Shown: one piece after another, positions 7,711 to 60,250 of the stretch
Position numbering within the stretch: position 1 is the first letter of the stretch
How the letters are laid out: every line of letters starts with the position of its first letter
DNA from: a virus
Lineage: Duplodnaviria > Caudoviricetes
Length of the DNA stretch: 64,000 bases
IMG/VR virus record: IMGVR_UViG_3300011008_002712
Direction: 5' to 3' (one strand)
Notes under the pieces: model-generated
Databases searched by the model: none
Seen by the model: only the letters and a program-made list of their open reading frames with translations
Told to the model about the DNA's origin: nothing
Program-made: the position numbers and the translations under genes

Positions 7711-8049
7711 TTATAACCCATACCGCAAGATATCTCCATAGTAATAAAGATAATTGATTTTGTTTTTTATGTATCGTTTAGTTTTCTTATTTAATTCCAT
7801 AAATTGATCGACTAGATGCAATGCAAAAATAGCTAGATCATTTTCATCTGGATTCCCTTTGAATTCTCTATAATTGCATTCGTATAGATCATTCCTATTG
7901 ATACGATTTATGCATATATACATGCAAACATAATATTTGTTTTTCTTAAACTTTGAATGAATCTCAAAATCTATTAAAATCTTCGATAAATCAAATTTGT
8001 TTAGTTTAATTTCTATGTTTTTATGATAACTGCTCACATTCCGCACCAT
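7711..8049 (-). CDS. Hypothetical protein with C-terminal xG[LM] motif (DILRYGL*)
   Basis: ORF track; motif family member. Confidence 0.7.
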   Translation of the reverse strand: MVRNVSSYHKNIEIKLNKFDLSKILIDFEIHSKFKKNKYYVCMYICINRINRNDLYECNYREFKGNPDENDLAIFALHLVDQFMELNKKTKRYIKNKINYLYYYGDILRYGL

Positions 8050-8267
8050 TGAGTATAAAAATCAAGAAGTTTTTCTTTGTTTTCAAGAAACATTTTCTTT
8101 ATTTCTAAAGCTTCATTAGTTAGCAACTTGTCTTCTGGCTTTGTGTAATGATATATGTTCATATTATAATCATAAATTTCATCACCATTCATGATATAAT
8201 GATCATAAAAATTATTTCCAATTGAAATTTTGATAGCATCTTTTGTAATTCTCTGCAATTTAAGCAT
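8034..8267 (-). CDS. Hypothetical protein with C-terminal motif (FYTQWCGM*)
   Basis: ORF track; AAGGTGA RBS. Confidence 0.7.
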   Translation of the reverse strand: MLKLQRITKDAIKISIGNNFYDHYIMNGDEIYDYNMNIYHYTKPEDKLLTNEALEIKKMFLENKEKLLDFYTQWCGM

Positions 8268-8295
8268 GTCTCATCACCTTATCCTTGCATAACAT

Positions 8296-8649
8296 CTACA
8301 GATTCTTTTTATCCCATTCAAACAGATTTTTACAGACAAGTCTATTCATAATCTTTTTGCACTGCTCATACTCTTCTTTTCCACAGAAATGAGGCTGTCC
8401 AAAACACTCATCTAGAAGTTTAAAACTCTCTATTTCGAGAGTCTTTTTGTTAATTATAATAGAAAATGAAATCGGATACTGATCACTCGTGTGAAGCATC
8501 CTTATAAAGTAAAGATCTGGCTTGTAGTAATTTGTAAAACCACCTTTCCGAATCAAATTATTAGCAGTAACGCCATCTTTCAGCTTAAAATTTTGGCACA
8601 ACTTACAGAATTCTTTAGAGTGCGAGTGGTTAAGTACAAATACATCCAT
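8296..8649 (-). CDS. Hypothetical protein
   Basis: ORF in a tightly packed minus-strand run. Confidence 0.65.
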   Translation of the reverse strand: MDVFVLNHSHSKEFCKLCQNFKLKDGVTANNLIRKGGFTNYYKPDLYFIRMLHTSDQYPISFSIIINKKTLEIESFKLLDECFGQPHFCGKEEYEQCKKIMNRLVCKNLFEWDKKNL

Positions 8650-8651
8650 AA

Positions 8652-9065
8652 TCAGTCACTCAACTCTCGTTTAAAAAACCACATTTTGAGATCATCATAG
8701 TTTTTAAATTTTTTTACAATACATTTTCCATCCATGTTGTCAAGGCCTATGTATTTGTTGTTATCTTCATCATAGCAGTACATACGGAGACGTTCTGTTT
8801 GTCCTTTGTCTCTGTCCCAAAGATTCATAAAAGCATTCATTCTCACCTTGCTGACTCTTATCGTTTCCATCTTTTTGTCACAGAGAATAGAGATAGCTAC
8901 TTTTAGTGCTATCCCGTGTTTTGGTCCGAAGCAAAGATAATTACCGTCTTCGTCCTTCCAACTTTCCATATCTTTCAGCAAATCTATCGTTTCATCAATA
9001 GTCATGTTAGCACCCTCCTCAAAAATAATCATATTTAGCATATTTGTCATCTCTTTTGCTGTCAT
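8652..9065 (-). CDS. Hypothetical protein
   Basis: ORF with upstream GGAG RBS. Confidence 0.65.
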   Translation of the reverse strand: MTAKEMTNMLNMIIFEEGANMTIDETIDLLKDMESWKDEDGNYLCFGPKHGIALKVAISILCDKKMETIRVSKVRMNAFMNLWDRDKGQTERLRMYCYDEDNNKYIGLDNMDGKCIVKKFKNYDDLKMWFFKRELSD

Positions 9066-9085
9066 GATGCAAAAATCATCTCCGT

Positions 9086-9670
9086 TTATTCTTTCACATT
9101 TGACATTTCAAAAACTGATCCTAAATTTATAAAATCGGCATGTTCTTTTACATGATCCAATAACTCTCTTTGAGTTATATTGTCTTTTACTTCATACACA
9201 TATTCAATATCATCATCTGTGAATATATAAAATAAAAGTTTGCTTCTGGGAAAAGCTGATTTCCCTAAAGTTTTACCTACATCTTCTATCAAATCAATGT
9301 CATCTTCATATGGTCCTTCAATTTTACTTGAAAGATTTCCTAACCAATTAAATGCATAAATTTTGTTTGTTGATTTTTTAGTAAACATAGTAAGTAAATG
9401 ACCTGGCATTGATGAAGGCGATCTATACCACTTCATCAACACTATCCGAGGATTAGCGATTGTGTTGTCATTAGTACATATATCATGCACGATGATGCTG
9501 GCATCGACACAATTCATTTCCTTGGTTTGCACAACATCATCTAAACTTTGAACAAGATTATTATTATTGTCAACACCATCCTTCGGGATAGTATTTTTGA
9601 CTTTGTTTCGTTTACACCAGCTCATAAAATCCCATGGATTTTTATAAAAAATATTTTCTTTATTTTCCAC
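9086..9670 (-). CDS. Hypothetical protein, possible transglutaminase-like Cys-His fold
   Basis: EMNCVDAS...GHLLTMF...YAFNW spacing. Confidence 0.45.
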   Translation of the reverse strand: MENKENIFYKNPWDFMSWCKRNKVKNTIPKDGVDNNNNLVQSLDDVVQTKEMNCVDASIIVHDICTNDNTIANPRIVLMKWYRSPSSMPGHLLTMFTKKSTNKIYAFNWLGNLSSKIEGPYEDDIDLIEDVGKTLGKSAFPRSKLLFYIFTDDDIEYVYEVKDNITQRELLDHVKEHADFINLGSVFEMSNVKE

Positions 9671-9720
9671 TTCTAATAAAATTCTCCAATCTAGTTTTTT
9701 ATAACATCAGATTGTTTTTT

Positions 9721-10038
9721 CTACAATCCAAGATGAAAAACATAAAAATCAACAAGATGATCTAAATTTGATGTCATAGCAATCCTTAGTTTTTGTTTAT
9801 AATGCTGAGATGTTTGGATATAACCAGGTTTTACTATTTTTAACAAATTGTTTTTTCTAACTTTAATATTAAAAATAATTTGATTTATTTCATTGTCTAC
9901 ACGAGTTATTATTATAGAACCATTTTCGCAAAAACGAATATATTTCTTCCTTTTTTTATCCAAAAATCTTACACACATAAATCCATAATAAAAACCATCA
10001 AATATGTTTTCTGTTAAACACAAATCAACTGCTGCCAT
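9721..10038 (-). CDS. Hypothetical protein with C-terminal motif (FYVFHLGL*)
   Basis: ORF track; motif family member. Confidence 0.7.
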   Translation of the reverse strand: MAAVDLCLTENIFDGFYYGFMCVRFLDKKRKKYIRFCENGSIIITRVDNEINQIIFNIKVRKNNLLKIVKPGYIQTSQHYKQKLRIAMTSNLDHLVDFYVFHLGL

Positions 10039-10733: not shown

Positions 10734-11086
10734 TCTAAAATTTTTTGTTTATATGACATATATACTTATTACCAAAATTTGGATCATCTTTTTTTGCACA
10801 TACATATTCATAAGTTTCTACATCATTCTTCGATGCTTCAAATTTTTCATCAAATTCTATCCTATGTCCATCTTTATCATACATAGCAAAAAGACTTAAT
10901 GTTTTTGTTTGCTTCATGATTTTTCTCCGTTTTGTTCAGATTGTTTGAGATCATCAAGATTATTTTCACTATCTTTTAAGCGTTTCAATCTTTCATCAAT
11001 CAAGAATTTATCAAAATCATTTTCTCCATTAGCCTTGACAAAACCTCTCTGTTTAAGTTTATCAACTACATCTTTGAAAAACATTC

Positions 11087-14948: not shown

Positions 14949-15278
14949 TGGAAGTGAGGAGAATTGAACTCCTGTCCGAAACAGTTTTAAAACAAACTTT
15001 TATCGTGATAGACTATTTATGTCAGTCAGACGAAGAAACGATTTTCTTAGCATTTGTTGTTCTAACAAAGCTTTGCTTCAAAAACTATCTACGTTTATTT
15101 AAAACTTCAGTGCTCACTCGTAGATGGTGCTTTCTGAAGAGCTGATTGATCGTCAAAGACGATCAGGCAGCAATTGCGTACTCTTCGTTCGCAGTTATTG
15201 TTTTTGTTTGTGCTTAAGCATTTCACCCATGCCACGAAATTTGTTTTTCCACTACCCCGTCGAATCCCTTACACTCCC
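14949..15278 (-). ncRNA. ssrA: tmRNA, tag peptide ANEEYAIAA* (15163-15192)
   Basis: 5' GGGAGTGTAAGGGATTCGACGGGG; 3' GGACAGGAGTTCAATTCTCCTCACTTCCA; G3:U70 pair; ATAACT-GCG resume context. Confidence 0.95.
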
Positions 15279-15279
15279 A

Positions 15280-15471: not shown

Positions 15472-15828
15472 TCATAGACCATAAGATAAAATTATTTTTT
15501 CTTTAAAAATTTCTAATTCATCACATAATTCTTTATAAACATCTTTTGTTATTTGTTTTTTACATCCAATCTCATTAACAAGTTTAAAAAACTCATTAGA
15601 TATATTGTGCTTACTTTTCAAGTAATTAGACGCGTAGAATAACTTAAAAAACAATCCATTCCTGTATTTGTAAAAAATACAAAATCGTTGCACTGGCAAA
15701 ATGGCATGTTTTTTATTTGTTTTTCTAATCGTCGTATTTTTATCATCTACACGTGTATAACGAAAATAAAAATTTTCGCTTCCATGATAAATTTTTTTCA
15801 ACGGAATAGGTTCTTCATACTTTCCCAT
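15472..15828 (-). CDS. Hypothetical protein with C-terminal motif (KIILSYGL*)
   Basis: ORF track; motif family member. Confidence 0.7.
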   Translation of the reverse strand: MGKYEEPIPLKKIYHGSENFYFRYTRVDDKNTTIRKTNKKHAILPVQRFCIFYKYRNGLFFKLFYASNYLKSKHNISNEFFKLVNEIGCKKQITKDVYKELCDELEIFKEKIILSYGL

Positions 15829-17666: not shown

Positions 17667-17957
17667 TTAAAATCCTCTTTCTACTGCATATGCATTATCA
17701 TAATCTTCAAAAGCATCTTTTAGACAGCGATATCTATGTACATTAAATGAAAAAAAATTATTTTCTGTATATAATACAGAGAAATCATATTGATTTTTCA
17801 TAATTAATATCACGGTGAGATTACAAAAACATCGTCCTGCTAATATAACGCAATCTTTAAATTTATTTTGCAATAACATAAAATCTTGCATTGTTAAGTC
17901 TTTAAGTTTCATTGTGTTCTCCTTTCTGTTTATTTTAGACAAAATATGCAAAATCAA
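17667..17957 (-). CDS. Hypothetical protein, weak C-terminal motif (AYAVERGF*)
   Basis: ORF track; probable start MKLKDL after AGGAG. Confidence 0.6.
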   Translation of the reverse strand: MILHILSKINRKENTMKLKDLTMQDFMLLQNKFKDCVILAGRCFCNLTVILIMKNQYDFSVLYTENNFFSFNVHRYRCLKDAFEDYDNAYAVERGF

Positions 17958-28929: not shown

Positions 28930-29418
28930 TTGTTATATACGTTAGAATTATCAAACATATTGCCATATGATTTTTATTATTCTCATTCTACACAATATAG
29001 TGCAGAAGAACTTCTTATGGCTGCAATACAATCAAAACAAAATATATGTGATGAAGTTTTAGATTTTTATAATGCTAACCTACAAATTAAAATAAAAATT
29101 TCTAATGGATTACAAGATGGAATACCAGTAAATATATACGCTATTATTGATTACAAAACAAAAGACGTATGTATGGCTACATTTACAGAGCATGGGCCAT
29201 TAAATTATTGTATGTATGGCAAACAAAATGCGTCTAAATGTTCTTCAAAAAATGAAAAATTTATAAATGAAATAGAACCATCGCTTAGATACATGATGAT
29301 CATGAATTATCAAGACATTATCGAATTAAACACAAATATTTTTAGCAAGATTTGCATGACAGATTCGCAAATTCATCAGTTGATTGAAAAATTTAAAGAA
29401 GAACATAAAAAGGAGTGA
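28930..29418 (+). CDS. Hypothetical protein between hen1 and pnkp
   Basis: ORF track. Confidence 0.6.
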   Translation: MLYTLELSNILPYDFYYSHSTQYSAEELLMAAIQSKQNICDEVLDFYNANLQIKIKISNGLQDGIPVNIYAIIDYKTKDVCMATFTEHGPLNYCMYGKQNASKCSSKNEKFINEIEPSLRYMMIMNYQDIIELNTNIFSKICMTDSQIHQLIEKFKEEHKKE

Positions 29419-32000
29419 GGGTTTTGGATAAAGTAACTTATGATATTATTCCGCACACTATATTTTTGACTATTGGCCCGTCTGGATGTGGAAAAACATA
29501 TTTTTGCAAAAACATTCTAATTCCTCAATTAGAAAAACTTTCTCCTCAAGTTAATAGAAACAAAGTATCAATTAATTATGTTTCTAGCGATGATATACGT
29601 AGAAATCTTCTTGGACAACCGGATCTTGATAAGAATCATTATGGAATGCTGACTGCATCTAAACCAGCATTTGATTTGTTATATGCGCAAGTTGATGCGG
29701 CAACAACTTTTCCTGTAAATAGTGAATTTGTGATTGTAGATACAAAAGGAACAAACGAAAATTTCCGCAAGAAAATTTTTGATATTGCATATAAAAATCA
29801 TTACAGCGTTACAGTATTGATTTTTAATTATAAAAAATACGAAGATTATAAAAAGTTCTCAAGTATGAGTCGTTTTACTCAAAAAGATATTGAAAAAGTT
29901 AGAGAAATTTCCAGTTCTGGATTAAAAAGGAATAACAAAATAAGACAAGTAATCAGCATAAAAAGCATAGATTTTGAAGATTCAAAGCCAGAATTGTCAT
30001 TTTCTTTGCATGATTTTTATACGTCTTGTTTTATTGATAATTCTAAAGAAACATTAATTATAAGTGATATACATGGTTGTTATGATGAATTTGTAGAGCT
30101 CCTTGAAAAAAACGATATTAAAGTAGAAAACCATAAAATTACTCAAAATGAACATAATAAAACTATCATAATTAATGGCGATTATATTGACAAAGGGCCA
30201 AAGTCACTCGATATGATAGAATTTTGTTATCAAAACATAAACGATATTTATATAACAATTGGGAATCATGAAAATCGTTTATACAAAGAACTTACAGAAA
30301 ATCTTGAACATATATCAGAGCCATGGTTCGATACATATGATATTATAACTGATGAGTATAAACAAAAATTTATTGATGTTTTTAAGAAATCACTTCCATT
30401 CGTAATGAATGATAAATTTATAGCAACACATGCACCATGTCATTCAAAATATATTGGAAAGGTTGATGGCAAAAGCATTTCTCGTCAGAGATATTATATG
30501 AAAAAACAAGGCAGTACTTCTCTTTATGATGAATTTTCTGAAATCGGATTGTTTGATACAGATATCAGTAATATTACTTATATTTTTGGTCATGTACAAA
30601 CATCTAGCCCAGGATGTGCTATAGACAAAAGAATACTTGCTGATGGCGGATGCGTTATTGGTGGCAAATTGCTGGGAATTGAAATTTCTTACAATGGAAA
30701 GGTATTTAAAAAATATGTAGATTCTCACCAACCAAAAGATGATGAGCTTCTGTTGCTTAAGCCATATCGTTTTATTCAAGACACATCTTCTGATCTTGAT
30801 TATAATAATATGACAGAAAAAGAAAAATCTAGAATAGAATATATGGTCGAAGATAAAGTCAATTTTATATCTGGCACTATGTCACCATGTGATAAAATGA
30901 ATGACCAATTGGAAAGCATAGAATCAGCTATTGATTATTTCAAGTCTCTCAATATCAATGATGTAGTAATAGAACCCAAATATATGGGATCAAGAATGAA
31001 CATGTATTTATTTGAAAAGAATGAAGATAGCTATGCAATATCACGAAATGGATATAAAGTTGGAATCGATATTAATGTGTTGTTTGATAAAATGCGCAAT
31101 ACTTTAAAAGATTTCATTGACTGGAACAAAGTAAAACTCATCATTTTGGATGGCGAATGCATGCCATGGCATGCTATGGGAAAAGAATTGATCAGAGATT
31201 TTAGATTGGTAGATGACAATGTTAGAATTGAAAATCAATTCTTAAAAGAAAGTGGTTTCGAAGAGCAATTCAAAAAAATGCAAGAAAAAATGTGCCAAAC
31301 AGATTTTGTTGCAGAAAAAAATAATATGTCTAAAAAAGAATTGATAGAAAAATATGGGAATTACGATTATGAAAATTTTATGGCATTGTCTGAATACAAG
31401 GAATATGTTTCAGTTGAACAAAAAGATAAATTGATCGATATATATAGAGAACAATTGCATCTTTATGGAGAGCCAGGAGAACTTGACTATAAGCCATTTG
31501 CTATTTTGAAGATAGTTTATAAAGATGGTCAAGAAGAGTGCTGGTATGATTCACCTGGAGAATGGACAAACGAATCAATGTTTAATCTATTAAACAAAGA
31601 TGGATGCTATAGATTTGATTTATCTAATGAAGATGATATCAATAAATGCATCAATCAATTCAGACAATATACTTTTGTTGAAAAATACGAAGGTGTTGTT
31701 ATGAAGCCAAATTCATTAGTTGCTAGCTCTACGATACCATATATGAAAATTAGAAATCCAGAATATCTTACAATTATTTATGGGTTCGATTATAAAGAAC
31801 CTAGAAAATATGAAAAATTATACGAAAGAAAATCAATAAAAGGAAAATTAAAACTTTCTTGTAATGAATGGGCAACTGGATTGAAAATGCTTAGAATTCC
31901 ATACGATTCTATTGATAAATCAAACAACAAGATCAAACATTTGTTTGCTAATTTCATTGTAGAAGACAAGCGTTCAGAATCGTTTGATCCACGTTTGTAA
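29415..32000 (+). CDS. pnkp: Pnkp polynucleotide kinase-phosphatase-ligase
   Basis: GPSGCGKT kinase; DIHG/GDYIDKG/GNHE phosphoesterase; EPKYMGSR and EGVVMKP ligase motifs; terminal DPRL. Confidence 0.93.
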   Translation: MRVLDKVTYDIIPHTIFLTIGPSGCGKTYFCKNILIPQLEKLSPQVNRNKVSINYVSSDDIRRNLLGQPDLDKNHYGMLTASKPAFDLLYAQVDAATTFPVNSEFVIVDTKGTNENFRKKIFDIAYKNHYSVTVLIFNYKKYEDYKKFSSMSRFTQKDIEKVREISSSGLKRNNKIRQVISIKSIDFEDSKPELSFSLHDFYTSCFIDNSKETLIISDIHGCYDEFVELLEKNDIKVENHKITQNEHNKTIIINGDYIDKGPKSLDMIEFCYQNINDIYITIGNHENRLYKELTENLEHISEPWFDTYDIITDEYKQKFIDVFKKSLPFVMNDKFIATHAPCHSKYIGKVDGKSISRQRYYMKKQGSTSLYDEFSEIGLFDTDISNITYIFGHVQTSSPGCAIDKRILADGGCVIGGKLLGIEISYNGKVFKKYVDSHQPKDDELLLLKPYRFIQDTSSDLDYNNMTEKEKSRIEYMVEDKVNFISGTMSPCDKMNDQLESIESAIDYFKSLNINDVVIEPKYMGSRMNMYLFEKNEDSYAISRNGYKVGIDINVLFDKMRNTLKDFIDWNKVKLIILDGECMPWHAMGKELIRDFRLVDDNVRIENQFLKESGFEEQFKKMQEKMCQTDFVAEKNNMSKKELIEKYGNYDYENFMALSEYKEYVSVEQKDKLIDIYREQLHLYGEPGELDYKPFAILKIVYKDGQEECWYDSPGEWTNESMFNLLNKDGCYRFDLSNEDDINKCINQFRQYTFVEKYEGVVMKPNSLVASSTIPYMKIRNPEYLTIIYGFDYKEPRKYEKLYERKSIKGKLKLSCNEWATGLKMLRIPYDSIDKSNNKIKHLFANFIVEDKRSESFDPRL

Positions 32001-35329: not shown

Positions 35330-35848
35330 CTACAGCCCTTGTTGTTTAATAAAAAAATTACTATCTCTATCAGCAAACTTTGTAAAATAATCAAAAAATG
35401 GATTGTCTTTTTTTATAACATCAATGATTTGACATATCAAATCAATAGGAATTGAATACATAAGAACATGCATATATTGTTGCGAAGAATATTTTTCAAG
35501 TAATTTGTGTTCATATAATTTATGCACTTCATTTTTTATATCATTATTGATGACAACATCAAAGAAAGAAATAAAAGTTTTTTTAATCAAAATTTGTGCT
35601 CCTAATGAATAAAGATAAAAATTTTTATATCCTAAATTTTCTCTTTTACTTGGGCAATAGCTGATTCTAAATCTAATAAAATTATCCATTACTTTGCATA
35701 ATCTAACGCAATCAACATCATTCATATCTGGTTCATTCAATAAATTTTCATAATAAGTATCATAAGATCCATCATAATAAATAGGATATTCAAATAATTT
35801 ATCTAATTCATTTAAAATCATACTTTTTCTATCTATTTTTTTAATCAT
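35330..35848 (-). CDS. Hypothetical protein with C-terminal motif (FFIKQQGL*)
   Basis: GAGGA RBS; motif family member. Confidence 0.7.
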   Translation of the reverse strand: MIKKIDRKSMILNELDKLFEYPIYYDGSYDTYYENLLNEPDMNDVDCVRLCKVMDNFIRFRISYCPSKRENLGYKNFYLYSLGAQILIKKTFISFFDVVINNDIKNEVHKLYEHKLLEKYSSQQYMHVLMYSIPIDLICQIIDVIKKDNPFFDYFTKFADRDSNFFIKQQGL

Positions 35849-39817: not shown

Positions 39818-40111
39818 ATGTGTACATGCAAATTTAAAAATTCTAACGAATTATATCGTGATGGTGTTGTTATGAATAATTACGATGTTTTACTAGGGCA
39901 AATTTGGAATACTGGAGAAAAAATTATTACTATAAAAGGCGATGATGTAGAAGTAAGATATTTTGTTCAACAAGATTTTGTAAAAGGACATATAAAATCT
40001 CATAAAATTAGTTGTCAATATATTCCAGCTTTAATTTATATAAAAAATCAAGACATATTAGATGTCTTTACGCTAATCAAACATTTTGCAGTACTATATG
40101 GAGGGCTATAA
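39818..40111 (+). CDS. Hypothetical protein with C-terminal motif (FAVLYGGL*)
   Basis: ORF track; motif family member. Confidence 0.65.
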   Translation: MCTCKFKNSNELYRDGVVMNNYDVLLGQIWNTGEKIITIKGDDVEVRYFVQQDFVKGHIKSHKISCQYIPALIYIKNQDILDVFTLIKHFAVLYGGL

Positions 40112-40329: not shown

Positions 40330-40788
40330 ATGAAAAGATTAATAAAAAAATCGCAATCTCAAACAACTGGTACTGTTGTTGTGTGGGAAGAAATAGAAGA
40401 CTTTATTTCAAACAGTAAGTATAAGGATTTATTAGATACAACCAAATATAAAAGAAATTTTAATGGTAAAAATGCAACAATAGGTGTTTTTGGCATTGTA
40501 AAAAATTCAAATCCATTGCAATTAGTAGTTGTAGATATATATGAATTTGTTAATATTCAAACTAATGAATATATTTGCGCTATAGAAGTAGGAGAAATTA
40601 AAATCAAAGACATAGACAAAAAAAATTTTGACATTATCATGGTTGATGATGGAATTTTTGGTCTTTATATTGAAGAAAAATCAATGGCTGAAATTATTAA
40701 TGACGGGAATTTTCATGAAATTATATTGTCATTTGAAGATAAAAATTTATTTAAAGACAAAGTATACGTTGATTATTTTGGATTATAG
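40330..40788 (+). CDS. Hypothetical protein with C-terminal motif (VYVDYFGL*)
   Basis: AAGGA RBS; motif family member. Confidence 0.7.
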   Translation: MKRLIKKSQSQTTGTVVVWEEIEDFISNSKYKDLLDTTKYKRNFNGKNATIGVFGIVKNSNPLQLVVVDIYEFVNIQTNEYICAIEVGEIKIKDIDKKNFDIIMVDDGIFGLYIEEKSMAEIINDGNFHEIILSFEDKNLFKDKVYVDYFGL

Positions 40789-41996: not shown

Positions 41997-42824
41997 ATGA
42001 AACAAGATCTAATTCGAGTATTTGAAGATACTAAAAGATATTGTGCGGAAAATGAGTTTCTTCGAGAAGCCATTAAAAAATCTATAGCAAATACTCGTTT
42101 TTATGCAGAAAATGATTATCCTTCTTTTGAAAAGAAAGCTGTTTCTCCTAATGTCACAGTCACCAAATTCAAGACAATTGATTCTGCTAGTTATTTTAAA
42201 AGAAAATATCCAAACAAAAATATTTGCATACTTAATTTTGCTTCTGCAACAAATCCAGGTGGTGGCGTTGAAGTTGGTTCAACAGCTCAAGAAGAAGCAA
42301 TTTGTAGAACTACAACATTATATCCAGTTCTTAATACAGAAACAAACATGAAAAATTTTTACAATATGCATCGAGCAAGAAAAAATGCAATATACACAGA
42401 CTCAATTTTATATACACCTGGTATATGCATTATTAAAAGCGATACCGATATGCCATCTAGATTAAAACCAGATAAATTTCAACAGATTAATGTTATTACA
42501 TGCGCAGCTCCAAATCTTAGGATTCATCCGAATAACAAATTCAATCCTGGGAATGATAAAGTTGCGCATCTTTCTGATGCAGAAATATATAATTTGCATA
42601 TAAAACGCGCTAATCATATATTAGCAGTAGCAGCTGCCAACAATAATGACATTATCATACTTGGAGCATTTGGATGTGGTGCTTTTCAAAATCCTCCAGA
42701 CGTTGTAGCAAAAGCTTATCATAATGTTATTATGAATTTCCCTTTTGAAGAAATCAATTTTGCTGTATACTGTTCGCCACACGATAAACGTAATTTTGAA
42801 ATTTTTAAGAAGGAATTTTCGTAA
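41997..42824 (+). CDS. TIGR02452/DUF2263 bacterial-type PARG macrodomain
   Basis: LNFASATNPGGG...AQEEAICR; ITCAAPN; ILGAFGCGAFQNPP. Confidence 0.9.
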   Translation: MKQDLIRVFEDTKRYCAENEFLREAIKKSIANTRFYAENDYPSFEKKAVSPNVTVTKFKTIDSASYFKRKYPNKNICILNFASATNPGGGVEVGSTAQEEAICRTTTLYPVLNTETNMKNFYNMHRARKNAIYTDSILYTPGICIIKSDTDMPSRLKPDKFQQINVITCAAPNLRIHPNNKFNPGNDKVAHLSDAEIYNLHIKRANHILAVAAANNNDIIILGAFGCGAFQNPPDVVAKAYHNVIMNFPFEEINFAVYCSPHDKRNFEIFKKEFS

Positions 42825-43003
42825 TGGACATTTTATCTTTTACAGTAGTAAATGTAAATAATGAAATTTGCAAAATAAATATGTTTTTAGGAATAATCAA
42901 TGCTGTCATTAAAACTCCAACTGAATGCAATGAAGCCATTATTTTTCATAAAGACATCATTGGTGAATATAAAGAAAAAATGATAATTACTTACGGTATG
43001 TAA
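42824..43003 (+). CDS. 59-aa protein (below track cutoff) with C-terminal motif (KMIITYGM*)
   Basis: Hand translation MDILSFTVV...YKEKMIITYGM; TAATG overlap with the PARG stop. Confidence 0.65.
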   Translation: MDILSFTVVNVNNEICKINMFLGIINAVIKTPTECNEAIIFHKDIIGEYKEKMIITYGM

Positions 43004-43020: not shown

Positions 43021-43326
43021 ATGAACAAAAAAATTCTTGATAACATGTATATGCACGAATATGTAAATTTTATTTTGCAATTTGTTTGCAAAAACAAAAT
43101 CAAAAACTACATCTATAAACGTTTAGATTCTAGTTGTCTTATCCCTAGAGTCTTAAGCAATAATTATACCATTAAAATCATACCAATACCAGCAGATAAA
43201 AATAAAGTCAATGCGCTAGTTCATTTCCCTGTTTACACAAGCGTTTTTAAATTAGATATCATTAATGATGTTGATACTGCTAAAAAAGACTTTATTACAG
43301 ATGTCGTAAAAGAAGAGGGATTATGA
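43021..43326 (+). CDS. Hypothetical protein with C-terminal motif (DVVKEEGL*)
   Basis: GGGAG RBS. Confidence 0.7.
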   Translation: MNKKILDNMYMHEYVNFILQFVCKNKIKNYIYKRLDSSCLIPRVLSNNYTIKIIPIPADKNKVNALVHFPVYTSVFKLDIINDVDTAKKDFITDVVKEEGL

Positions 43327-43837: not shown

Positions 43838-44047
43838 ATGGACGAAATAGAACAAATTATTGACAAAGTAAATACATTTTACAATTTTCAAACTAAACGT
43901 CCGCAACTCATTGGCAATTTTGTTTATATAGAATTGTTAAATTATATAAACGATTATCATTTTCGAATTACATCAATTGTTATGTTATCAACAGAAATTA
44001 AAAATGGAGAGTATGCAAACGAAATGATTAAGGTGTATGGGCTATGA
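43838..44047 (+). CDS. Hypothetical protein with C-terminal motif (EMIKVYGL*)
   Basis: ORF track; motif family member. Confidence 0.7.
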   Translation: MDEIEQIIDKVNTFYNFQTKRPQLIGNFVYIELLNYINDYHFRITSIVMLSTEIKNGEYANEMIKVYGL

Positions 44048-44382
44048 AAAATAAAATTTTCTTTACAAAACGCGAAAGATCATTAATAAAAAAATGCTTC
44101 ATTCATGATTTCGATTATATGCATTATTTCCTCAATGTCTATATATATGACAGAAAACGTTTTACTGCAGAACGCGACCATATGTTATTTTATCCTGGCG
44201 CCATTTCTTATTTAGAAAAAAAATTAACTCTCAATAACAATTTTGTGGAAATTTGCATAGGAATAGATTTTACAACTGATCCATATAGTGATGAAAAAAG
44301 CACATTAAAATTTCATCATGTCTTATATAAAGATGGATCATTTGAACCAAATGATGAACTTATTAGAATAATTGGATTATAA
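44044..44382 (+). CDS. Hypothetical protein with C-terminal motif (ELIRIIGL*)
   Basis: ORF track; motif family member. Confidence 0.7.
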   Translation: MKNKIFFTKRERSLIKKCFIHDFDYMHYFLNVYIYDRKRFTAERDHMLFYPGAISYLEKKLTLNNNFVEICIGIDFTTDPYSDEKSTLKFHHVLYKDGSFEPNDELIRIIGL

Positions 44383-44804: not shown

Positions 44805-45707
44805 ATGACAAAAGAAGAACTTTCTACTCTATATCAAAACTTGCAAAAAGAACAAAAAGAAAAATATCCTCGTTATTTACATATTATGCAAGAATATTTT
44901 CCAGATCTTCTTCTAGAACCATTTGAGAGATTTAAAAAACAATTTTTGTCTCAAAGAAATCTAAAAGAATTAACAGAAGAAGAAAAGGAAGATTTGGATT
45001 TTGCTTTTAGTATAAAAAAAGACTGTTTTGCAAATTCTTCACTTTTTTCTGATTACAAAAATTTAACAGGAGAAGTTGATTTTAGTTTTATATCTAGACT
45101 TAAATTTTTTAATGATGAAAAAAAAGAAACACAAGAATTAGCAAAAAAAATTGGAAAAGAAAATATTAATTTTCTCTATGATTTCAAAAAATTATTTTAT
45201 TTTTTAGAGTCTCTTCACCCAATTTTTAATAAAAATTACGTAAGAGAATACAGAATAAATGAAGATTATTATTTGGACTCAAAAGTCCTTGAATTTAATA
45301 ATGAAGATGTTTTAATTACAGATCCATGCTACATTACTAAAGGTAATAATTGGGAAAAATCAAATTATGGAGAAAATTTTGAAGTTTTCGGAATGTCAAA
45401 ATATGCAACGAAATCAACTCTTTATGGAGACTGGAGTTGTACTGTATTTGACAAAGACTCTAAAAAACCGATTGGAGAATTCTGTGCTGATGCAGGTATG
45501 GTATCTATATTTTCTCTTGACGAAGTAAAAAAATTTTTAAATCCAGAAATTGAAGAATGGGCAAAAGAACATACATGGCGCGCTACCATCTTAAAAAATT
45601 ATACAGGAAAAATTCAAATAAAAACAGACTGCAATGACTACGAATTTTTTAGATATGTTGAAGGAACTGGCTCTATCAATTTTGTTGGAAAACAAACCGG
45701 ACTCTAA
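44805..45707 (+). CDS. Hypothetical protein (ITDPCY...YGDWSC...FCADAG); C-terminal half paralogous to 50203..50640
   Basis: ORF track; shared sequence blocks. Confidence 0.75.
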   Translation: MTKEELSTLYQNLQKEQKEKYPRYLHIMQEYFPDLLLEPFERFKKQFLSQRNLKELTEEEKEDLDFAFSIKKDCFANSSLFSDYKNLTGEVDFSFISRLKFFNDEKKETQELAKKIGKENINFLYDFKKLFYFLESLHPIFNKNYVREYRINEDYYLDSKVLEFNNEDVLITDPCYITKGNNWEKSNYGENFEVFGMSKYATKSTLYGDWSCTVFDKDSKKPIGEFCADAGMVSIFSLDEVKKFLNPEIEEWAKEHTWRATILKNYTGKIQIKTDCNDYEFFRYVEGTGSINFVGKQTGL

Positions 45708-50202: not shown

Positions 50203-50640
50203 ATGACAAAAGAAGATCATGAAGATTCAAAGATTCTTGAATTCCAGAACGAAGATGTTTTGATCATAGATCTATGTTATGTAATCAATGATGATCCAAC
50301 AAATCTCGATTCTTCCGGCATGACAAAATATATAACAAAATCTAATTTTTACGGAGATCTATGCTATGAAATATTTGACAAAGATTCTAAAAAACTTATA
50401 GACAAATTTTATACTAATATAGGAATGATTTTTGTATCTTCTCTTGATGAAGTAAAGAAATTTTTGAATCAAGAAATTGAGGATTGGATTGAAGAATATC
50501 CATGCCGCGCTACAATTTTAAGAAATTATACTGGGAAAATCCAAATCAAAACTGGATACGACAAGAAAAATCATAAGTTTTACAGATACATAGAAGGAGA
50601 AGGTTCAATCAACTTTATTGGAAAACAAATAAAATTTTGA
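50203..50640 (+). CDS. Truncated paralog of 44805..45707
   Basis: EDVLI; SLDEVKKFLN; RATILxNYTGKIQIKT shared. Confidence 0.75.
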   Translation: MTKEDHEDSKILEFQNEDVLIIDLCYVINDDPTNLDSSGMTKYITKSNFYGDLCYEIFDKDSKKLIDKFYTNIGMIFVSSLDEVKKFLNQEIEDWIEEYPCRATILRNYTGKIQIKTGYDKKNHKFYRYIEGEGSINFIGKQIKF

Positions 50641-55347: not shown

Positions 55348-55644
55348 TTACAGCCCATTATATTTAATATAGTATGTTTCTGTGAGATACATAATAAAAT
55401 CATGAATAATTACTTCCAGCTGCATTTGCAAAAAGATTTTATCGTGAGCAGGAATGATAATATTATATTTTTTTTCTAGATTCAAGATGATGCGTTCTGA
55501 TGAATATGGAAATTCAATAAAAGAAAGAGTTGGGACGTATACGGTTGGGATGAATGTGATTTTATATACAAATGGCTTGTAGTTTTCATAGAAAAACAAT
55601 TTGAGTGAAAGAGTATGATTTATGAATTGTGACGTAAAATGCAA
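55348..55644 (-). CDS. Hypothetical protein with C-terminal motif (YYIKYNGL*)
   Basis: ORF track; motif family member. Confidence 0.65.
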   Translation of the reverse strand: MHFTSQFINHTLSLKLFFYENYKPFVYKITFIPTVYVPTLSFIEFPYSSERIILNLEKKYNIIIPAHDKIFLQMQLEVIIHDFIMYLTETYYIKYNGL

Positions 55645-55647
55645 TGT

Positions 55648-55977
55648 TTATATGCCTTCTTTCTTGATATAATCATTAAATATTTTTTGAGCTATGATGA
55701 TTAAATCTTTTTCTATATAATTTGTATTTTTAATAGATGGGTGTCTGATTGTGTTGACTGCGCGCTGGATAATAAATTTGTAGTTCAAAGTATTGATTGG
55801 GATGATAGATGAAATAGTATGTAGTGTAAAATTGTGTGCACCGTTATATTGGATAGTAATGTCCATGTAGTCTTGTTCTGGTGAAGGAATAGTAAAATAG
55901 ATTCCTCCAGATAGGTTGTCGTGCTCATAGTATGCTACATAACTCATGTTTTTATATGTTTTAGTATTGATTAACAT
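55648..55977 (-). CDS. Hypothetical protein with C-terminal motif (DYIKKEGI*)
   Basis: Start MLINTK after GAGG; the track ORF extends to 56058. Confidence 0.7.
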   Translation of the reverse strand: MLINTKTYKNMSYVAYYEHDNLSGGIYFTIPSPEQDYMDITIQYNGAHNFTLHTISSIIPINTLNYKFIIQRAVNTIRHPSIKNTNYIEKDLIIIAQKIFNDYIKKEGI

Positions 55978-55984
55978 AATAGCC

Positions 55985-56278
55985 TCACAATCCAAAAAAT
56001 AAAATAAAACACTCTTTATGCGACAGGAAGAAATCATTGAATTTGTAAAAATGTTCATTTTTTGCTTCTAAGAACACGGCTATACTGTCTAAGTATCTAT
56101 GTATTGTCTTTGTTTGTTTTGATTTGATGTGTATGATATAGTCTATGTCGTAATACCTTGATGATACTTCTAGGTATACATCTTGAAATAAAATTGTGAT
56201 GTTATTGTTTTTGTATGGTATAATGATTCTCATGTAGTCTGAATCTGGACTGTCATAAAACCCTTTGAATACACTCAT
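55985..56278 (-). CDS. Hypothetical protein with C-terminal motif (CFILFFGL*)
   Basis: ORF track; motif family member. Confidence 0.7.
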   Translation of the reverse strand: MSVFKGFYDSPDSDYMRIIIPYKNNNITILFQDVYLEVSSRYYDIDYIIHIKSKQTKTIHRYLDSIAVFLEAKNEHFYKFNDFFLSHKECFILFFGL

Positions 56279-56610
56279 AATCCGTACCTCAGTATAAAAG
56301 ATGGAATATATTTCAATGAGTCTTGTTCTGTAAGAAAATTATGCTGGGTGACATAGCATTCATCTTTGATATGAAAAACTACTTCAAAAACTTTTTCTTT
56401 CCATTTTTTTGTTATTGATATGATTGCAGTGACAGTATAAGTGATGATGACAGCCACATCTGTAACGACAACAGTTTTGACGTATTTATTCGGGTTTTCA
56501 ATGCACATGAACAAAGTGCGGTGAGAAGACATGATTGAATCAAGATTAACATAGAAACATTCATTCACGGTGTTATCATAAAATTTTTTGTACTTTTTTA
56601 GTATTTTCAT
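56275..56610 (-). CDS. Hypothetical protein with C-terminal motif (SFILRYGL*)
   Basis: AGGAGG RBS; motif family member. Confidence 0.7.
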   Translation of the reverse strand: MKILKKYKKFYDNTVNECFYVNLDSIMSSHRTLFMCIENPNKYVKTVVVTDVAVIITYTVTAIISITKKWKEKVFEVVFHIKDECYVTQHNFLTEQDSLKYIPSFILRYGL

Positions 56611-56751
56611 AGCCCGCCTCCTGATTCTATTCTACTATAAATAACATTGAAAGTACATAATGAAAAACAAAAATGTTTGTACTTTCAATAGAAAATGTGA
56701 TAGAATAATAAAGAAATATATAAAAAGTGGCGAGGTATGAAAGGATATTAG

Positions 56752-57072
56752 ATGAAAGAAAGAAGATTGGAGTACAAAGACGTGGATGTAGAAAAAAGTG
56801 TTTCAAAAAGTTATACAAGGCACTGGAAAGAATACGAGTTTGCGTTCAACAGCAGGTACATAGATGACATTGGTGTATTCTCAGTGAACGTATTCAGGAT
56901 GAACGACAAAGAATGGATAGACGGCTCATCTTGGAGCTATGATTTAAAAGGGCCGAAAAAGTTTCCAATTCTTAATAACATATCAGATGAATATCATGCA
57001 ATAGTTGAAAGAGCGGCTAAGAGGTTTGCATTGGCATCTGAGAAAGGATATGTCTTGCATGAAGGATTATAA
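56752..57072 (+). CDS. Hypothetical protein with C-terminal motif (GYVLHEGL*)
   Basis: AAAGGA RBS; motif family member. Confidence 0.7.
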   Translation: MKERRLEYKDVDVEKSVSKSYTRHWKEYEFAFNSRYIDDIGVFSVNVFRMNDKEWIDGSSWSYDLKGPKKFPILNNISDEYHAIVERAAKRFALASEKGYVLHEGL

Positions 57073-58063: not shown

Positions 58064-58093
58064 GAGCGCGCAGCAATATGTTCATACTGCATC

Positions 58094-58447
58094 TTGAAAG
58101 GAGCAAAAATTATGGAATCAAATTCCGATATTCTTGCTAAGAAAGACAGAGAAATTTTGGAGCTCAATGTCCTTGTATTTGGATATCATCAATTACTTGT
58201 TGGATTAATCAAAGATTTTGTCAATAATGAACTTGACGAAGAATTTTGCGACTGTTGTTATGGAGGTCCTTTGTGCGATCACATAAATGATCCAAGCAGC
58301 AGGTGCGTTTACTTAAAACTTCAAAATATTGGAGAACATTGGAATACTTACGAAATAGAGAAAATTATAAAACAAGTAAAACGTAGCAAGTCTGAGCTCT
58401 TCAAGATGTATGGGAATGAGATTATCAGAGAACTTGAAGAAGATTAA
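58094..58447 (+). CDS. Hypothetical Cys-containing protein
   Basis: ORF track. Confidence 0.6.
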   Translation: MKGAKIMESNSDILAKKDREILELNVLVFGYHQLLVGLIKDFVNNELDEEFCDCCYGGPLCDHINDPSSRCVYLKLQNIGEHWNTYEIEKIIKQVKRSKSELFKMYGNEIIRELEED

Positions 58448-58450
58448 AAT

Positions 58451-58993
58451 ATGAGGAGAATACAAATGACAAAACAAGAAAGAATGTACTGTGATTATAT
58501 TGAAAATCACGTAAATAACGTTTATAGGGCGTATCAATTGATTGGAGACATTTTGCATGAAGACTTAGATTTTGACGATCTTAGTTTAGTGAAAAGAGTT
58601 AACACTCATGACACTTCAAAATGGAGTGAAGATGAATTTGAAGCATACAGGCAAAATTTTTATCCATCAGAGCGTGAAAGAACAGACGAAGACATGTTTG
58701 AAAAGGCTTGGCAGCATCATTACAAAAACAACGATCATCATCCAGAACATTACGTATTTAATTACGCATTTTTAAACGGAGAAATCAAGCAGCTTGCGAA
58801 AGAAATGCCAGATGAAGCTATAGCAGAAATGTTTTGTGATTGGACTGCTATGTCATTGAATTTCAAGACATCTTTGAAAAAATGGTATGACAGAGCGATG
58901 AAAGACGGAAAATTTGTTTTCAATGAAAAAACACTTGAAAAAGTAGATCGTATTATGTCAAAAGAGTGGGTAAAAGATATTCATCTTAAGTGA
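58451..58993 (+). CDS. HD-like (DUF5662-type) protein
   Basis: H...HDTSKW; AWQHHYKNNDHHPEH; EMFCDW. Confidence 0.8.
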   Translation: MRRIQMTKQERMYCDYIENHVNNVYRAYQLIGDILHEDLDFDDLSLVKRVNTHDTSKWSEDEFEAYRQNFYPSERERTDEDMFEKAWQHHYKNNDHHPEHYVFNYAFLNGEIKQLAKEMPDEAIAEMFCDWTAMSLNFKTSLKKWYDRAMKDGKFVFNEKTLEKVDRIMSKEWVKDIHLK

Positions 58994-59000
58994 ATGGAGT

Positions 59001-59939
59001 GTGGTATCATTGACAATGATTAGTGATGCAATGGTTCATAGATTTTTGAAAGATTTTTCGATTTCTCTTCCAGTAGAAAGAAAAGAATTTTTAGATTATT
59101 ATCTTGAAACATTTGATTCATACTTTGATATGAAGAATAAATTTGACATTTTTATGAAATGTAGAAGCTATTTTGCTAATGACGAACATTTCTATACTTA
59201 TCGTAATCGTGTAGTAGAACAAATTCTTTCTTATATTGAAAGCCATAAAAAATATATTGAATTCAATAACTGCAATTGCAAGTTTGATGAAGGATTATTG
59301 ACTACCAAGCTTCACAATAGAGACATTTTCAATCTAGAAAACGTTGGTAAGACATTTCTGAGCATTGACTTAGTAAGCGGCAATTTTACTGCAATGAAGC
59401 ATTTTGATAAAGATTTAGTCAAACATGCTGAAACATGGAAAGAATTCATGCATATCTTTTCAGAATTTGATTATTTTGCAGAAGCTAAGCATTTTCGTCA
59501 GGTTCTTTTAGGAAAATTGAATCCCAAAAGAATCATGAGATATGAGAGACTTTTGTTAGAGAGAGATATATTGAAATTTATCATTGACGATGATAAAAAT
59601 AATTTGAAGTTAGAACATATTGTCAGTCATAATTATGATGAAATCATTTTTGAGGTAGACAAAGATTTCGATGAATGTTCAGTAAATGTGCCAGAATCAT
59701 ACAAAAATGATGTACACATTGAAAAGTTTGTTTTAGAAAACATCACTCCGTATAAAATGTTTATAAAGCGTAATGGAACAAAAATGAAATTCAAATGCGT
59801 TAATTCTAAATTATTTCCGCAAGTATACAAGCATGTTATGGGATTGCCATTGCATGAAAAAGATATGTATTTCATTTCAGATACTGGACATTTATCTAAG
59901 TATATTGAAAAATTGAAATTTGAGGAGGAAGAGAGTTGA
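59001..59939 (+). CDS. Hypothetical protein with polymerase-palm-like motifs
   Basis: FLSIDLVSGNF and VSHNYDEIIFEV resemble family A polymerase motifs A and C. Confidence 0.5.
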   Translation: MVSLTMISDAMVHRFLKDFSISLPVERKEFLDYYLETFDSYFDMKNKFDIFMKCRSYFANDEHFYTYRNRVVEQILSYIESHKKYIEFNNCNCKFDEGLLTTKLHNRDIFNLENVGKTFLSIDLVSGNFTAMKHFDKDLVKHAETWKEFMHIFSEFDYFAEAKHFRQVLLGKLNPKRIMRYERLLLERDILKFIIDDDKNNLKLEHIVSHNYDEIIFEVDKDFDECSVNVPESYKNDVHIEKFVLENITPYKMFIKRNGTKMKFKCVNSKLFPQVYKHVMGLPLHEKDMYFISDTGHLSKYIEKLKFEEEES

Positions 59940-60250
59940 AATGCTCTCATGGTAACGCTTGTAATTCTTTGCAGTATAAGAAAAATGATTACATTGTAGA
60001 TTTAAAATTTTTGATAAAAAATAGAATTGCTGTTACATTTACTATTAGGTGTAATAGCAATTCTTTTGAATTACACGATACTGCAAGAATAAAACTCAAG
60101 GAAGATGTTCTAACAGAAATAAAAAGAAGTTTGTCTCACAAACACAATGAAAAAGTAAGAGAATTGATATATGATTTGTTGCTGAATGATAAATTAAGAA
60201 AATTCATTTTATCTTCTCTTGATGAATATGTCAAACATGATGGTATGTAA
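59936..60250 (+). CDS. Hypothetical protein with C-terminal motif (EYVKHDGM*)
   Basis: GAGGAGG RBS; motif family member. Confidence 0.7.
   Translation: MKCSHGNACNSLQYKKNDYIVDLKFLIKNRIAVTFTIRCNSNSFELHDTARIKLKEDVLTEIKRSLSHKHNEKVRELIYDLLLNDKLRKFILSSLDEYVKHDGM

What the first reader, a model, noticed from the sequence alone, without database searches (positions are those of the whole stretch)
7711..60250. About 19 dissimilar phage proteins share a C-terminal motif, Phi-[IV]-x-x-x-G-[LMIF]-COOH: candidate undescribed protein tagging/docking/targeting system
Seen in sequence, last 7 residues before the stop: 7711 DILRYGL, 8034 YTQWCGM, 9721 YVFHLGL, 15472 IILSYGL, 17667 YAVERGF, 35330 FIKQQGL, 39818 AVLYGGL, 40330 YVDYFGL, 42824 MIITYGM, 43021 VVKEEGL, 43838 MIKVYGL, 44044 LIRIIGL, 44805 VGKQTGL (weak), 55348 YIKYNGL, 55648 YIKKEGI, 55985 FILFFGL, 56275 FILRYGL, 56752 YVLHEGL, 59936 YVKHDGM. 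Selecting only on G(-2) and a hydrophobic (-1) residue, position -6 is I or V in 16 of 19, and -7 is hydrophobic (often Y/F) in nearly all. That is roughly one gene in five or six here. The proteins are mostly 60-170 aa, lie on both strands and show no other similarity by eye. None of the recognisable enzymes carries the motif. All four Gly codons, several Leu codons plus ATG/ATA/TTT, and all three stop codons are used, so conservation is at the peptide level. Inference: the free C-terminal tail is recognised by a common partner. Options are a capsid-loading or ejection signal for host-takeover effectors, a docking peptide for a hub protein (conceptually like the C-terminal clamp-binding tails of T4 gp43/gp55/gp33), a degron or adaptor tag, or a pro-tail whose trimming exposes a C-terminal Gly for conjugation. 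The reader protein is not identified.
Basis: partly seen in the sequence, partly recalled or inferred. Interest (0 to 1): 0.92.

Follow-up and report, generated by a model that had tools for sequence, protein, structure and literature searches.

The report
Phage small-protein family ending Gly-Leu
About one gene in six in this window (one in twelve of the whole 416-kb uncultured phage) encodes a small, very fast-evolving protein that stops exactly at hydrophobic-x-x-hydrophobic-Gly-Leu. The pattern is real and specific to this phage clade.

Summary
All 19 C-termini are as listed. Genome-wide, 44 of 535 predicted proteins end in G-[LMIFV] (about 7 expected), and 33 also have I/V/L at -6 (1.7 expected). 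The signal sits only at the exact C-terminus. A 504-kb sister phage has 106 of 700 such genes. Bacillus phage G, an AT-rich jumbo control, has 4 of 585. The signal does not come from ribosome-binding sites or gene overlaps.

The carriers are about 100-aa ORFans in same-strand arrays, and they are the fastest-turning-over gene class. They are probably not unrelated:
- With the last 30 residues removed, and each protein's own family excluded, their nearest neighbours are still other carriers.
- AlphaFold models of two sequence-unrelated subfamilies share 17 of their top 50 structural neighbours.
- Positions -6, -3, -2 and -1, preceded by helical periodicity, match a Schellman helix cap with its hydrophobic triangle.

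My best reading is a clade-specific expanded family whose conserved end is its own helix cap. A docking role is not excluded, because the chain always ends right after the cap and the tail is more conserved than the body. No reader protein was found.

The scan had already noted this motif on the sister phage (e1-5468358, e1-5468264).

The parts
7711..8049 (-). 112-aa ORFan ending DILRYGL
   Evidence: in gene set; no Pfam family
8034..8267 (-). 77-aa ORFan ending YTQWCGM; overlaps the next gene by 16 nt
9721..10038 (-). 105-aa ORFan ending YVFHLGL
   Evidence: only itself found among 5.8 billion proteins
15472..15828 (-). 118-aa ORFan ending IILSYGL
17667..17957 (-). 96-aa protein ending AVERGF; weak case
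   Evidence: sister-phage ortholog ends EQNF
35330..35848 (-). 172-aa protein ending FIKQQGL
39818..40111 (+). 97-aa protein ending AVLYGGL
40330..40788 (+). 152-aa protein ending YVDYFGL; its first ~85 aa are shared with paralogs that lack the tail
   Evidence: only near-identical copies in the big database
42824..43003 (+). 59-aa protein ending MIITYGM
43021..43326 (+). 101-aa protein ending VVKEEGL; stop overlaps the next start (ATGA)
43838..44047 (+). 69-aa protein ending MIKVYGL; ATGA overlap with the next carrier
44044..44382 (+). 112-aa protein ending LIRIIGL
44805..45707 (+). 300-aa protein ending VGKQTGL; probably a chance match, not a family member
   Evidence: paralog at 50203-50640 (57% identical) ends KQIKF
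55348..55644 (-). 98-aa ORF ending YIKYNGL; last of a four-gene same-strand array; coding status uncertain
   Evidence: codon score -2.1
55648..56058 (-). 136-aa protein ending YIKKEGI
55985..56278 (-). 97-aa ORF ending FILFFGL; coding status uncertain
   Evidence: codon score -0.1
56275..56610 (-). 111-aa protein ending FILRYGL
   Evidence: ESM Atlas holds it, but the model is poor and there is no named neighbour
56752..57072 (+). 106-aa protein ending YVLHEGL
   Evidence: codon score 19.1, dropped from my gene set only by the overlap rule
59936..60250 (+). 104-aa protein ending YVKHDGM

Best explanation
The carriers are members of one very large, clade-specific and extremely fast-evolving set of small alpha+beta proteins. 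They have a four-stranded sheet followed by helices, are about 100 aa long, and sometimes carry an added N-terminal domain such as a zinc ribbon. The set grew by tandem duplication in this lineage of huge AT-rich gut phages. It makes up 8% of genes here and 15% in the 504-kb sister phage.

The shared end is the C-cap of their last amphipathic helix, a Schellman loop with its hydrophobic triangle. Position -6 is C3, -3 is Ccap, Gly -2 is C' (left-handed conformation) and Leu -1 is C''. The gene stops right after the cap. The cap survives because it is the element least replaceable for folding, while the surfaces diversify, presumably in an arms race with the host.

Shown here: the enrichment, its terminal position, clade specificity, peptide-level conservation, helical periodicity, subfamily conservation, body similarity and a shared fold class.

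Inferred: common descent of all subfamilies, and that the cap is conserved for structure alone. I put about 0.55 on that. I put about 0.8 on the weaker claim that this is one expanded family (or a few) rather than a tag on unrelated proteins.
For: - Size class and location: 24% (this phage) and 35% (sister phage) of 100-130-aa proteins carry the end, against 1.4% and 2.4% of proteins of 260 aa or more. Carriers are concentrated at 195-315 kb. The sister phage shows tandem arrays with recognisable subfamilies.
- Body similarity with the last 30 residues removed: a carrier's nearest neighbour is another carrier 59% of the time, against 17% for non-carriers (base rate 25.5%; shuffled control 33% and 32%). 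From this phage to the sister phage the figures are 53% against 13%, with 0 of 2000 permutations as extreme. With each protein's own jackhmmer/BLAST family excluded, it is 48% against 24%, with 0 of 1000 permutations.
- AlphaFold models: family A (pLDDT 80) has four strands then three helices. The g388 family (pLDDT 88) has a zinc ribbon, then four strands and helices, with the last helix at 163-187 followed by Y-G-I. Their top-50 lists from an all-PDB structural search share 17 entries, matching residues 1-98 of one model and 55-190 of the other.
- Hydrophobic peaks at -3, -6/-7, -10/-11, -14/-15, -18 and -22 indicate a helix.
- The pattern X-x-x-X-G-X matches the Schellman hydrophobic triangle, where Leu prevails and most triangles are buried (PMC9951308).
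- The terminal Gly is one of only two or three invariant columns in each subfamily.
- No PDZ, S41, ClpP or clamp gene was found. ClpX is also present in the motif-free control phage.
Against: - Profile-profile comparison finds no homology between the four subfamilies (probability under 1%). A single HMM does not separate carriers from other proteins (AUC 0.50-0.65). Common descent therefore rests on statistics and on a weak (Z below 8) shared fold class.
- A helix cap normally tolerates a continuing chain. Here there is no excess of G-hydrophobic at offsets 1-11 from the end among about 150 carrier genes, which suggests selection on the free end itself.
- In three of four subfamilies the last 8 residues are 48-54% identical, against 18-26% for the body. 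A 60%-identical homolog has an identical 13-residue tail.
- Leu is 7.5-fold enriched after the Gly, while Ile (0.2x) and Val (0.5x) are depleted. Asn does not substitute for Gly.
- In the family A model the last 7 residues are coil with pLDDT 66.
- One window protein (40330-40788) shares its N-terminal domain with paralogs that lack the tail.
Confidence: 0.55

Rival explanations
1. Docking handle. The carriers are the same expanded family, but the Gly-Leu-capped terminal helix is conserved because one shared partner, from the phage or the host, binds it. The variable bodies would then act as adaptors, effectors or inhibitors aimed at many targets. The principle would resemble poxvirus ankyrin/PRANC proteins or the C-terminal tail of SspB that binds ClpX.
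For: - Strict termination one residue after the Gly, with no extended variants.
- The tail is more conserved than the body.
- Leu is specifically preferred over Ile and Val.
- The motif is clade-specific and absent from Bacillus phage G.
- Carriers are the least conserved gene class between the two phages. Only 9% and 1% have a BLAST hit in the other phage, against 41% and 30% of same-size non-carriers. That fits an arms-race family with one fixed interface.
- The family A model predicts the tail with low confidence.
Against: - No partner was identified. The phage has no PDZ, S41 or ClpP gene, and no clamp C-terminal domain was detected.
- Every conserved position is explained by an intramolecular Schellman cap.
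- No carrier belongs to a known unrelated family beyond the number expected by chance.
Confidence: 0.28
2. Clp-linked reading (a special case of docking). The [FYI]-G-L-COOH end is either a degron or adaptor tail read by the phage's own ClpX, or a mimic of the [LIV]-G-[FL] loops by which Clp ATPases dock on host ClpP.
For: - Both phages encode a full ClpX. It scores 450 bits on the NCBIfam equivalog model against a cut-off of 359, and keeps the zinc-binding domain, GYVG and IGF.
- No phage ClpP was found.
- The tripeptide resembles the ClpP-docking loops (my own knowledge of ClpX IGF and ClpA IGL loops).
Against: - Bacillus phage G also encodes ClpX (637 bits) but has no such ends: 4 of 585 genes, and 0 of 181 in the 70-130-aa class. 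ClpX presence therefore does not track the motif.
- The end does not resemble the known ClpX C-terminal degrons (LAA-COOH, RRKKAI-COOH; my own knowledge).
- Nothing was tested for binding.
Confidence: 0.07
3. Nucleotide-level or translational cause. The GGN-YTN-stop sequence serves the downstream gene as an RBS or coupling signal, or tunes termination, and the peptide is a by-product.
For: - Many carriers are followed at once by the next start codon, either as an ATGA overlap or 4-9 nt away.
- GGG and CTA codons are over-used at -2 and -1.
Against: - The rate is still about five times chance for genes followed by a convergent gene or a spacer longer than 40 nt.
- All four Gly codons and five Leu codons are used.
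- Correlated hydrophobic positions at -3, -6, -7 and beyond have no nucleotide rationale.
- Large genes in the same genome lack the motif.
- Phage G, with the same GC content, lacks it.
Confidence: 0.03

Closest known systems
Schellman loop (glycine helix C-cap) with hydrophobic triangle (Aurora, Srinivasan and Rose 1994; Aurora and Rose 1998, both as cited in PMC9951308)
   Same: The pattern is hydrophobic C3, hydrophobic Ccap, Gly at C' and hydrophobic (mostly Leu) C'', which is X-x-x-X-G-X. It is preceded by helical periodicity. The g388 model ends its helix three residues before the stop.
   Different: In known proteins the loop is usually internal and the chain continues. Here the chain always stops at C''. 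This happens in about 8-15% of a phage's genes. Leu is preferred over Ile and Val far more strongly than I would expect from a generic cap.
Lineage-specific expansions of small or adaptor proteins in large viruses (jumbo-phage paralog families; poxvirus ankyrin-repeat proteins with a C-terminal PRANC/F-box-like domain). From my own knowledge and earlier scan notes.
   Same: Tens to about a hundred tandem paralogs per genome, hypervariable bodies, one constant C-terminal element, and accessory genome regions.
   Different: The constant element is only about 7-13 residues long and has no known partner. The family has no Pfam or PHROG model and no PDB or BFVD structural relative.
C-terminal docking peptides on hubs: T4 gp45-binding tails, E. 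coli Pol IV QLVLGL-COOH on the beta clamp, SspB tail on the ClpX N-domain, HbYX/GQYL tails on proteasome rings (my own knowledge)
   Same: A short hydrophobic C-terminal peptide that needs a free end. Pol IV even ends in L-G-L.
   Different: Those tails sit on a handful of functionally linked proteins, follow flexible linkers, and their partner is known. Here there are 40-100 ORFans, the tail continues a helix, there is no Gln of the clamp motif, and no clamp C-terminal domain or other reader was found.

Membership tests
Schellman helix C-cap | Gly (left-handed conformation) at C', directly after the helix | tested here: met
   G at -2 is 10-15-fold enriched when -1 is hydrophobic. It is invariant in all four subfamily alignments. 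The g388 model has helix 163-187 followed by Y188-G189-I190.
Schellman helix C-cap | Hydrophobic C3 and C'' (plus Ccap) forming a patch or triangle | tested here: met
   Selecting only on -2 and -1, position -6 is I/V/L in 33 of 44 carriers. Over both phages, -6 is 67% hydrophobic and -3 is 63% hydrophobic. The pattern X-x-x-X-G-X is as in PMC9951308.
Schellman helix C-cap | An alpha-helix immediately upstream | tested here: inconclusive
   Hydrophobic periodicity of 3.5-4 residues reaches back to -22, and the g388 model has the helix. The family A model shows only one helical turn and then coil, at pLDDT 66.
Schellman helix C-cap | 6-to-1 and 5-to-2 backbone hydrogen bonds | not testable with these tools
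Bacterial beta-clamp-binding motif (QL[SD]LF / QLxLxL) | Conserved Gln followed by Leu, plus a clamp to bind | tested here: not met
   Q is not among the common residues at -5 to -7. No DNA_pol3_beta_3 match was found in the phage; the host clamp was not examined.
ClpX C-terminal degron (ssrA-like LAA-COOH) | Terminal Ala-Ala or a similar small nonpolar pair | tested here: not met
   The ends are G-L, G-F or G-M.
ClpP-docking [LIV]-G-[FL] tripeptide | Tripeptide on a surface loop of a Clp ATPase that inserts into a ClpP pocket | tested here: inconclusive
   The sequence resemblance is only partial: -3 is F, Y or I, followed by G-L. The carriers are not ATPases and the peptide is terminal. There is no phage ClpP, and binding was not tested.
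Ubiquitin-like or ThiS-type modifier | C-terminal Gly-Gly (exposed or after trimming) and a beta-grasp fold | tested here: not met
   Only 1 of the 19 window proteins has GG before the last residue. The models are four-stranded meander plus helices, with no ubiquitin-like hit.
Any Pfam-A or PHROG family | Profile match shared by the carriers | tested here: not met
   147 carriers from both phages were scanned. No family matched more than one member, and the hits are the large proteins expected by chance.

The most novel reading that the evidence does not exclude
The Gly-Leu-capped C-terminal helix is an address or docking handle that needs a free carboxyl end and is read by one still unknown hub of the phage or its host. 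On this reading, the 40-100 hypervariable small proteins per genome are a phage-encoded repertoire of adaptors, inhibitors or timed-turnover substrates that all plug into the same machine.
Probability: 0.28. Interest if true: 0.8.

Novelty: new member of a known kind. Interest (0 to 1): 0.5.

Why it matters
One gene in twelve here, and one in seven in the sister phage, belongs to an undescribed protein set with no Pfam, PHROG, PDB or BFVD relative. That makes it one of the largest gene-family expansions I know of in a phage, and the fastest-changing part of these genomes. It probably marks the front line of host takeover or counter-defence in gut megaphages.

If the end is only a helix cap, the practical gains are a simple way to annotate a large block of phage dark matter and a natural example of how little sequence a fold needs to keep. 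If the free Gly-Leu end is read by a partner, it would define a new many-to-one targeting system in phages. That question is directly testable with a 7-13-residue peptide.

Tried and rejected
- RBS or overlap artefact: rejected.
- Gene-caller artefact or a general property of AT-rich jumbo phages: rejected by the Bacillus phage G control, run with the same caller (4 of 585).
- BLAST and jackhmmer link only small subfamilies; 103-108 carriers stay singletons.
- One global HMM does not discriminate carriers.
- hhalign between subfamilies finds nothing.
- Pfam and PHROGs find nothing shared.
- Window proteins 9721-10038 and 40330-40788 have no homologs beyond near-identical copies in 5.8 billion proteins.
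- Megablast and tblastn against GenBank phages find no close relative.
- A neighbouring 275-aa gene gave no related loci.
- Foldseek against the PDB and BFVD gave no match at E of 0.001 or better. VIA-align best Z scores were 5.9 and 6.7, below the noise mark. ESM Atlas fold search gave only weak rows, such as DUF4160 at TM 0.56. The Atlas feature search on window protein 56275-56610 was uninformative.
- Homodimer prediction for family A gave no verdict (score 0.02). I do not use it as evidence either way.
- Searches of the phage for PDZ_2, ClpP, Peptidase_S41 and the beta-clamp C-terminal domain were all empty.
- Phage ClpX as a dedicated reader is weakened, because the motif-free phage G also has ClpX.
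- Asn as an alternative C' residue is not enriched.
- Literature searches found no description of such an end in phages.

Full report
**What the window is.** The window is bases 191998-255997 (minus strand) of a single 416,024-bp virus record with 29.7% GC. It carries nine tRNA genes and a tmRNA gene. It also has phage-type ATPase, HNH endonuclease, phosphoesterase and nucleotidyltransferase genes. GenBank phages hold no near relative.

**Checking the observation.** All 19 listed ORFs end as stated. No gene finder was installed, so I built a crude one from codon-usage log-odds with greedy non-overlap. It gave 535 genes at 89% coverage. Only stop positions matter for this question.
- Genome-wide, 44 proteins end in G-[LMIFV], where the internal dipeptide rate predicts 7.0 (P 1e-21).
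- 33 also have I/V/L at -6, against 1.7 expected (P 5e-31).
- Sliding the pattern 1-24 residues inward gives 1-9 and 0-3 hits, so the feature is strictly terminal.
- In the window, 17 of 96 called genes have it.
- A few listed cases are weak. 44805-45707 has a paralog ending KQIKF. 17667-17957 has an ortholog ending EQNF. Two ORFs have near-zero coding scores.

**Not a nucleotide-level effect.** Many carriers are followed at once by the next start codon. However, the rate is still 6.8% for genes followed by a convergent gene or by more than 40 nt of spacer, against 9.6-10.7% for overlapping or closely spaced genes and 1.3% by chance. All four Gly codons and five Leu codons are used; only GGG and CTA are mildly over-represented.

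**Not general.**
- Proteins of 260 aa or more show the chance rate (1.4%), while 100-130-aa proteins show 24%.
- Bacillus phage G is a jumbo phage with 30% GC and many small ORFans. Its first 450 kb, run through the same caller, gave 4 of 585 genes with the end, 0 with the full motif, and 0 of 181 in the 70-130-aa class.
- The one relative I could find is IMGVR_UViG_3300028886_000026, 504,279 bp, with an ATPase 76% identical. It has 106 of 700 such genes (P 2e-75). They are mostly 85-120 aa and lie in long same-strand arrays.
- A third, more distant contig (ENA, 118.7 kb) has 8 of 33 genes with the end. This includes an array ending [YF]-G-[L/M/A/Q].

**Are the carriers unrelated?** By ordinary sequence searches, mostly yes.
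- BLAST and jackhmmer leave 103-108 of about 145 carriers as singletons.
- No Pfam or PHROG family is shared.
- Window protein 9721-10038 has no homolog in 5.8 billion proteins.
- Only 9% (this phage) and 1% (sister phage) of 70-140-aa carriers have a BLAST hit in the other phage, against 41% and 30% of same-size non-carriers.

Subfamilies do exist, and they keep the end: 10 of 11, 8 of 8, 6 of 6 and 5 of 5 members.
- The zinc-ribbon subfamily includes genome gene 313863-314435 (called g388 in this report). It has 15 clusters in a 1.84-billion-protein library. Fourteen end in G-[L/I/M] and one in G-Y. The terminal Gly is one of three invariant columns.
- A 60%-identical homolog of a family A member has an identical 13-residue tail.
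- The last eight residues are 48-54% identical, against 18-26% for the body, in three of the four subfamilies.

**Hidden relatedness.** I removed the last 30 residues and ran all-against-all Smith-Waterman on the 458 proteins of 70-140 aa from both phages.
- A carrier's best neighbour is another carrier 59% of the time, against 17% for non-carriers. The base rate is 25.5%, and the residue-shuffled control gives 33% and 32%.
- From this phage into the sister phage the figures are 53% against 13%, with 0 of 2000 label permutations as extreme.
- With each protein's own jackhmmer/BLAST family excluded, it is 48% against 24%, with 0 of 1000 permutations.
- Against this, hhalign between four subfamily profiles finds nothing, and a single HMM does not discriminate carriers.

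**Structure.**
- AlphaFold2 on family A (11 sequences, pLDDT 80) gives four antiparallel strands, three helices, and a tail that is mostly coil at pLDDT 66.
- The g388 family (17 sequences, pLDDT 88) gives a zinc ribbon, then four strands and helices. The final helix spans 163-187 and is followed by Y-G-I.
- Neither model has a significant PDB or BFVD match.
- In an exhaustive structural search, the two top-50 lists share 17 entries. These align to residues 1-98 of one model and 55-190 of the other. All Z scores are below 8. This shows a common beta4-plus-helices arrangement, not proven homology.

**What the motif is.**
- Hydrophobic frequency peaks at -3, -6/-7, -10/-11, -14/-15, -18 and -22, which is helical spacing.
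- Hydrophobic -6, hydrophobic -3, Gly -2 and Leu -1 correspond exactly to C3, Ccap, C' and C'' of a Schellman loop with its hydrophobic triangle. Published model peptides use X-A-A-X-G-X, Leu is the prevailing residue, and 87% of triangles are buried (PMC9951308).
- An ordinary helix cap therefore accounts for every conserved position.

**What it does not explain.**
- Helix caps normally tolerate a continuing chain, yet there is no excess of the motif at offsets 1-11 from the end in either phage.
- After the Gly, Leu is enriched 7.5-fold, while Ile (0.2x) and Val (0.5x) are depleted. Asn, the usual alternative at C', is not enriched at -2.
- These points, together with a tail more conserved than the body, keep a role for the free end alive.

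**Search for a reader.**
- The phage has no PDZ_2, Peptidase_S41, ClpP or beta-clamp C-terminal domain match.
It has the zinc-binding domain, GYVG and IGF motifs.
- Phage G also has ClpX and lacks the motif, so the co-occurrence is not informative.
- A homodimer prediction for family A gave no verdict.

**Verdict.**
- The reading "dissimilar proteins with a portable tag" is weakened.
- The best reading is one expanded, hypervariable small-protein family (or a few) whose constant end is its own Gly-Leu helix cap. I give this 0.55 for a structural cause alone, and about 0.8 for "family, not tag".
- A docking function of the free end remains a live rival at about 0.28, with Clp-linked variants at about 0.07.
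- The same phenomenon was noted earlier in this scan: in the neighbouring window of this genome (e1-5641611), in a second reading of this same stretch (e1-5641645), and on the 504-kb sister phage (e1-5468358, e1-5468264).

Noticed in passing
window 720-7622 and 14949-15278 (all minus strand): Nine tRNA genes (Ser, Glu, Ile x2, Leu, Trp, Asn, Gln, Lys) and a phage-encoded tmRNA with the tag peptide ANEEYAIAA.
   Followed up: no
G000:C1:114987-116192 (L076:1183-2388, +): A full-length phage ClpX: NCBIfam equivalog score 450 bits, with the zinc-binding domain, GYVG pore loop and IGF loop retained. No ClpP gene was found in the phage. The sister phage and Bacillus phage G also encode ClpX.
   Followed up: partly
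G000:C1:313863-314435 (L013:17964-18533, +) and relatives: An undescribed 160-230-aa zinc-ribbon protein family (CxxC...CxxC, then the conserved motif Y-x-Y-[ED]-C). It has 15 clusters in a 1.84-billion-protein library, and all end in G followed by one hydrophobic or aromatic residue. The AlphaFold model has pLDDT 88 and no PDB match.
   Followed up: partly
L069:2666-5841 (ENA ERZ27256887 k141_1828822, 118.7-kb contig): A third, more distant phage has a tandem array of ~90-aa paralogs ending [YF]-G-[L/M/A/Q]. There the penultimate Gly is more constant than the last residue.
   Followed up: partly
window 55348-55644 (-) and 55454-55582 (+): Two ORFs on opposite strands over the same DNA both end in N-G-L. 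My caller preferred the 42-aa plus-strand ORF (score 7.7) over the 98-aa minus-strand ORF (score -2.1). Which one is real is unclear.
   Followed up: no
G000:C1:285256-286818 (L012:9360-10919, -): A 520-aa protein ends in K-I-G-L, and its 521-aa sister-phage ortholog ends in G-L-G-L. One carrier in the Pfam scan matched DUF3440 (E 7.5e-31) and one in the PHROG scan matched a PAPS-reductase family; I think this protein is that carrier but did not confirm it. It would be the only carrier with an enzyme-like match that keeps the end in its ortholog, which may be chance.
   Followed up: no
window 29415-32000 (+): An 861-aa protein combines an ATPase-like N-terminal region with a NinI-like metallophosphoesterase. 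Its C-terminal half is 26-32% identical to proteins of jumbo phages XacN1, RYC and CM1.
   Followed up: no
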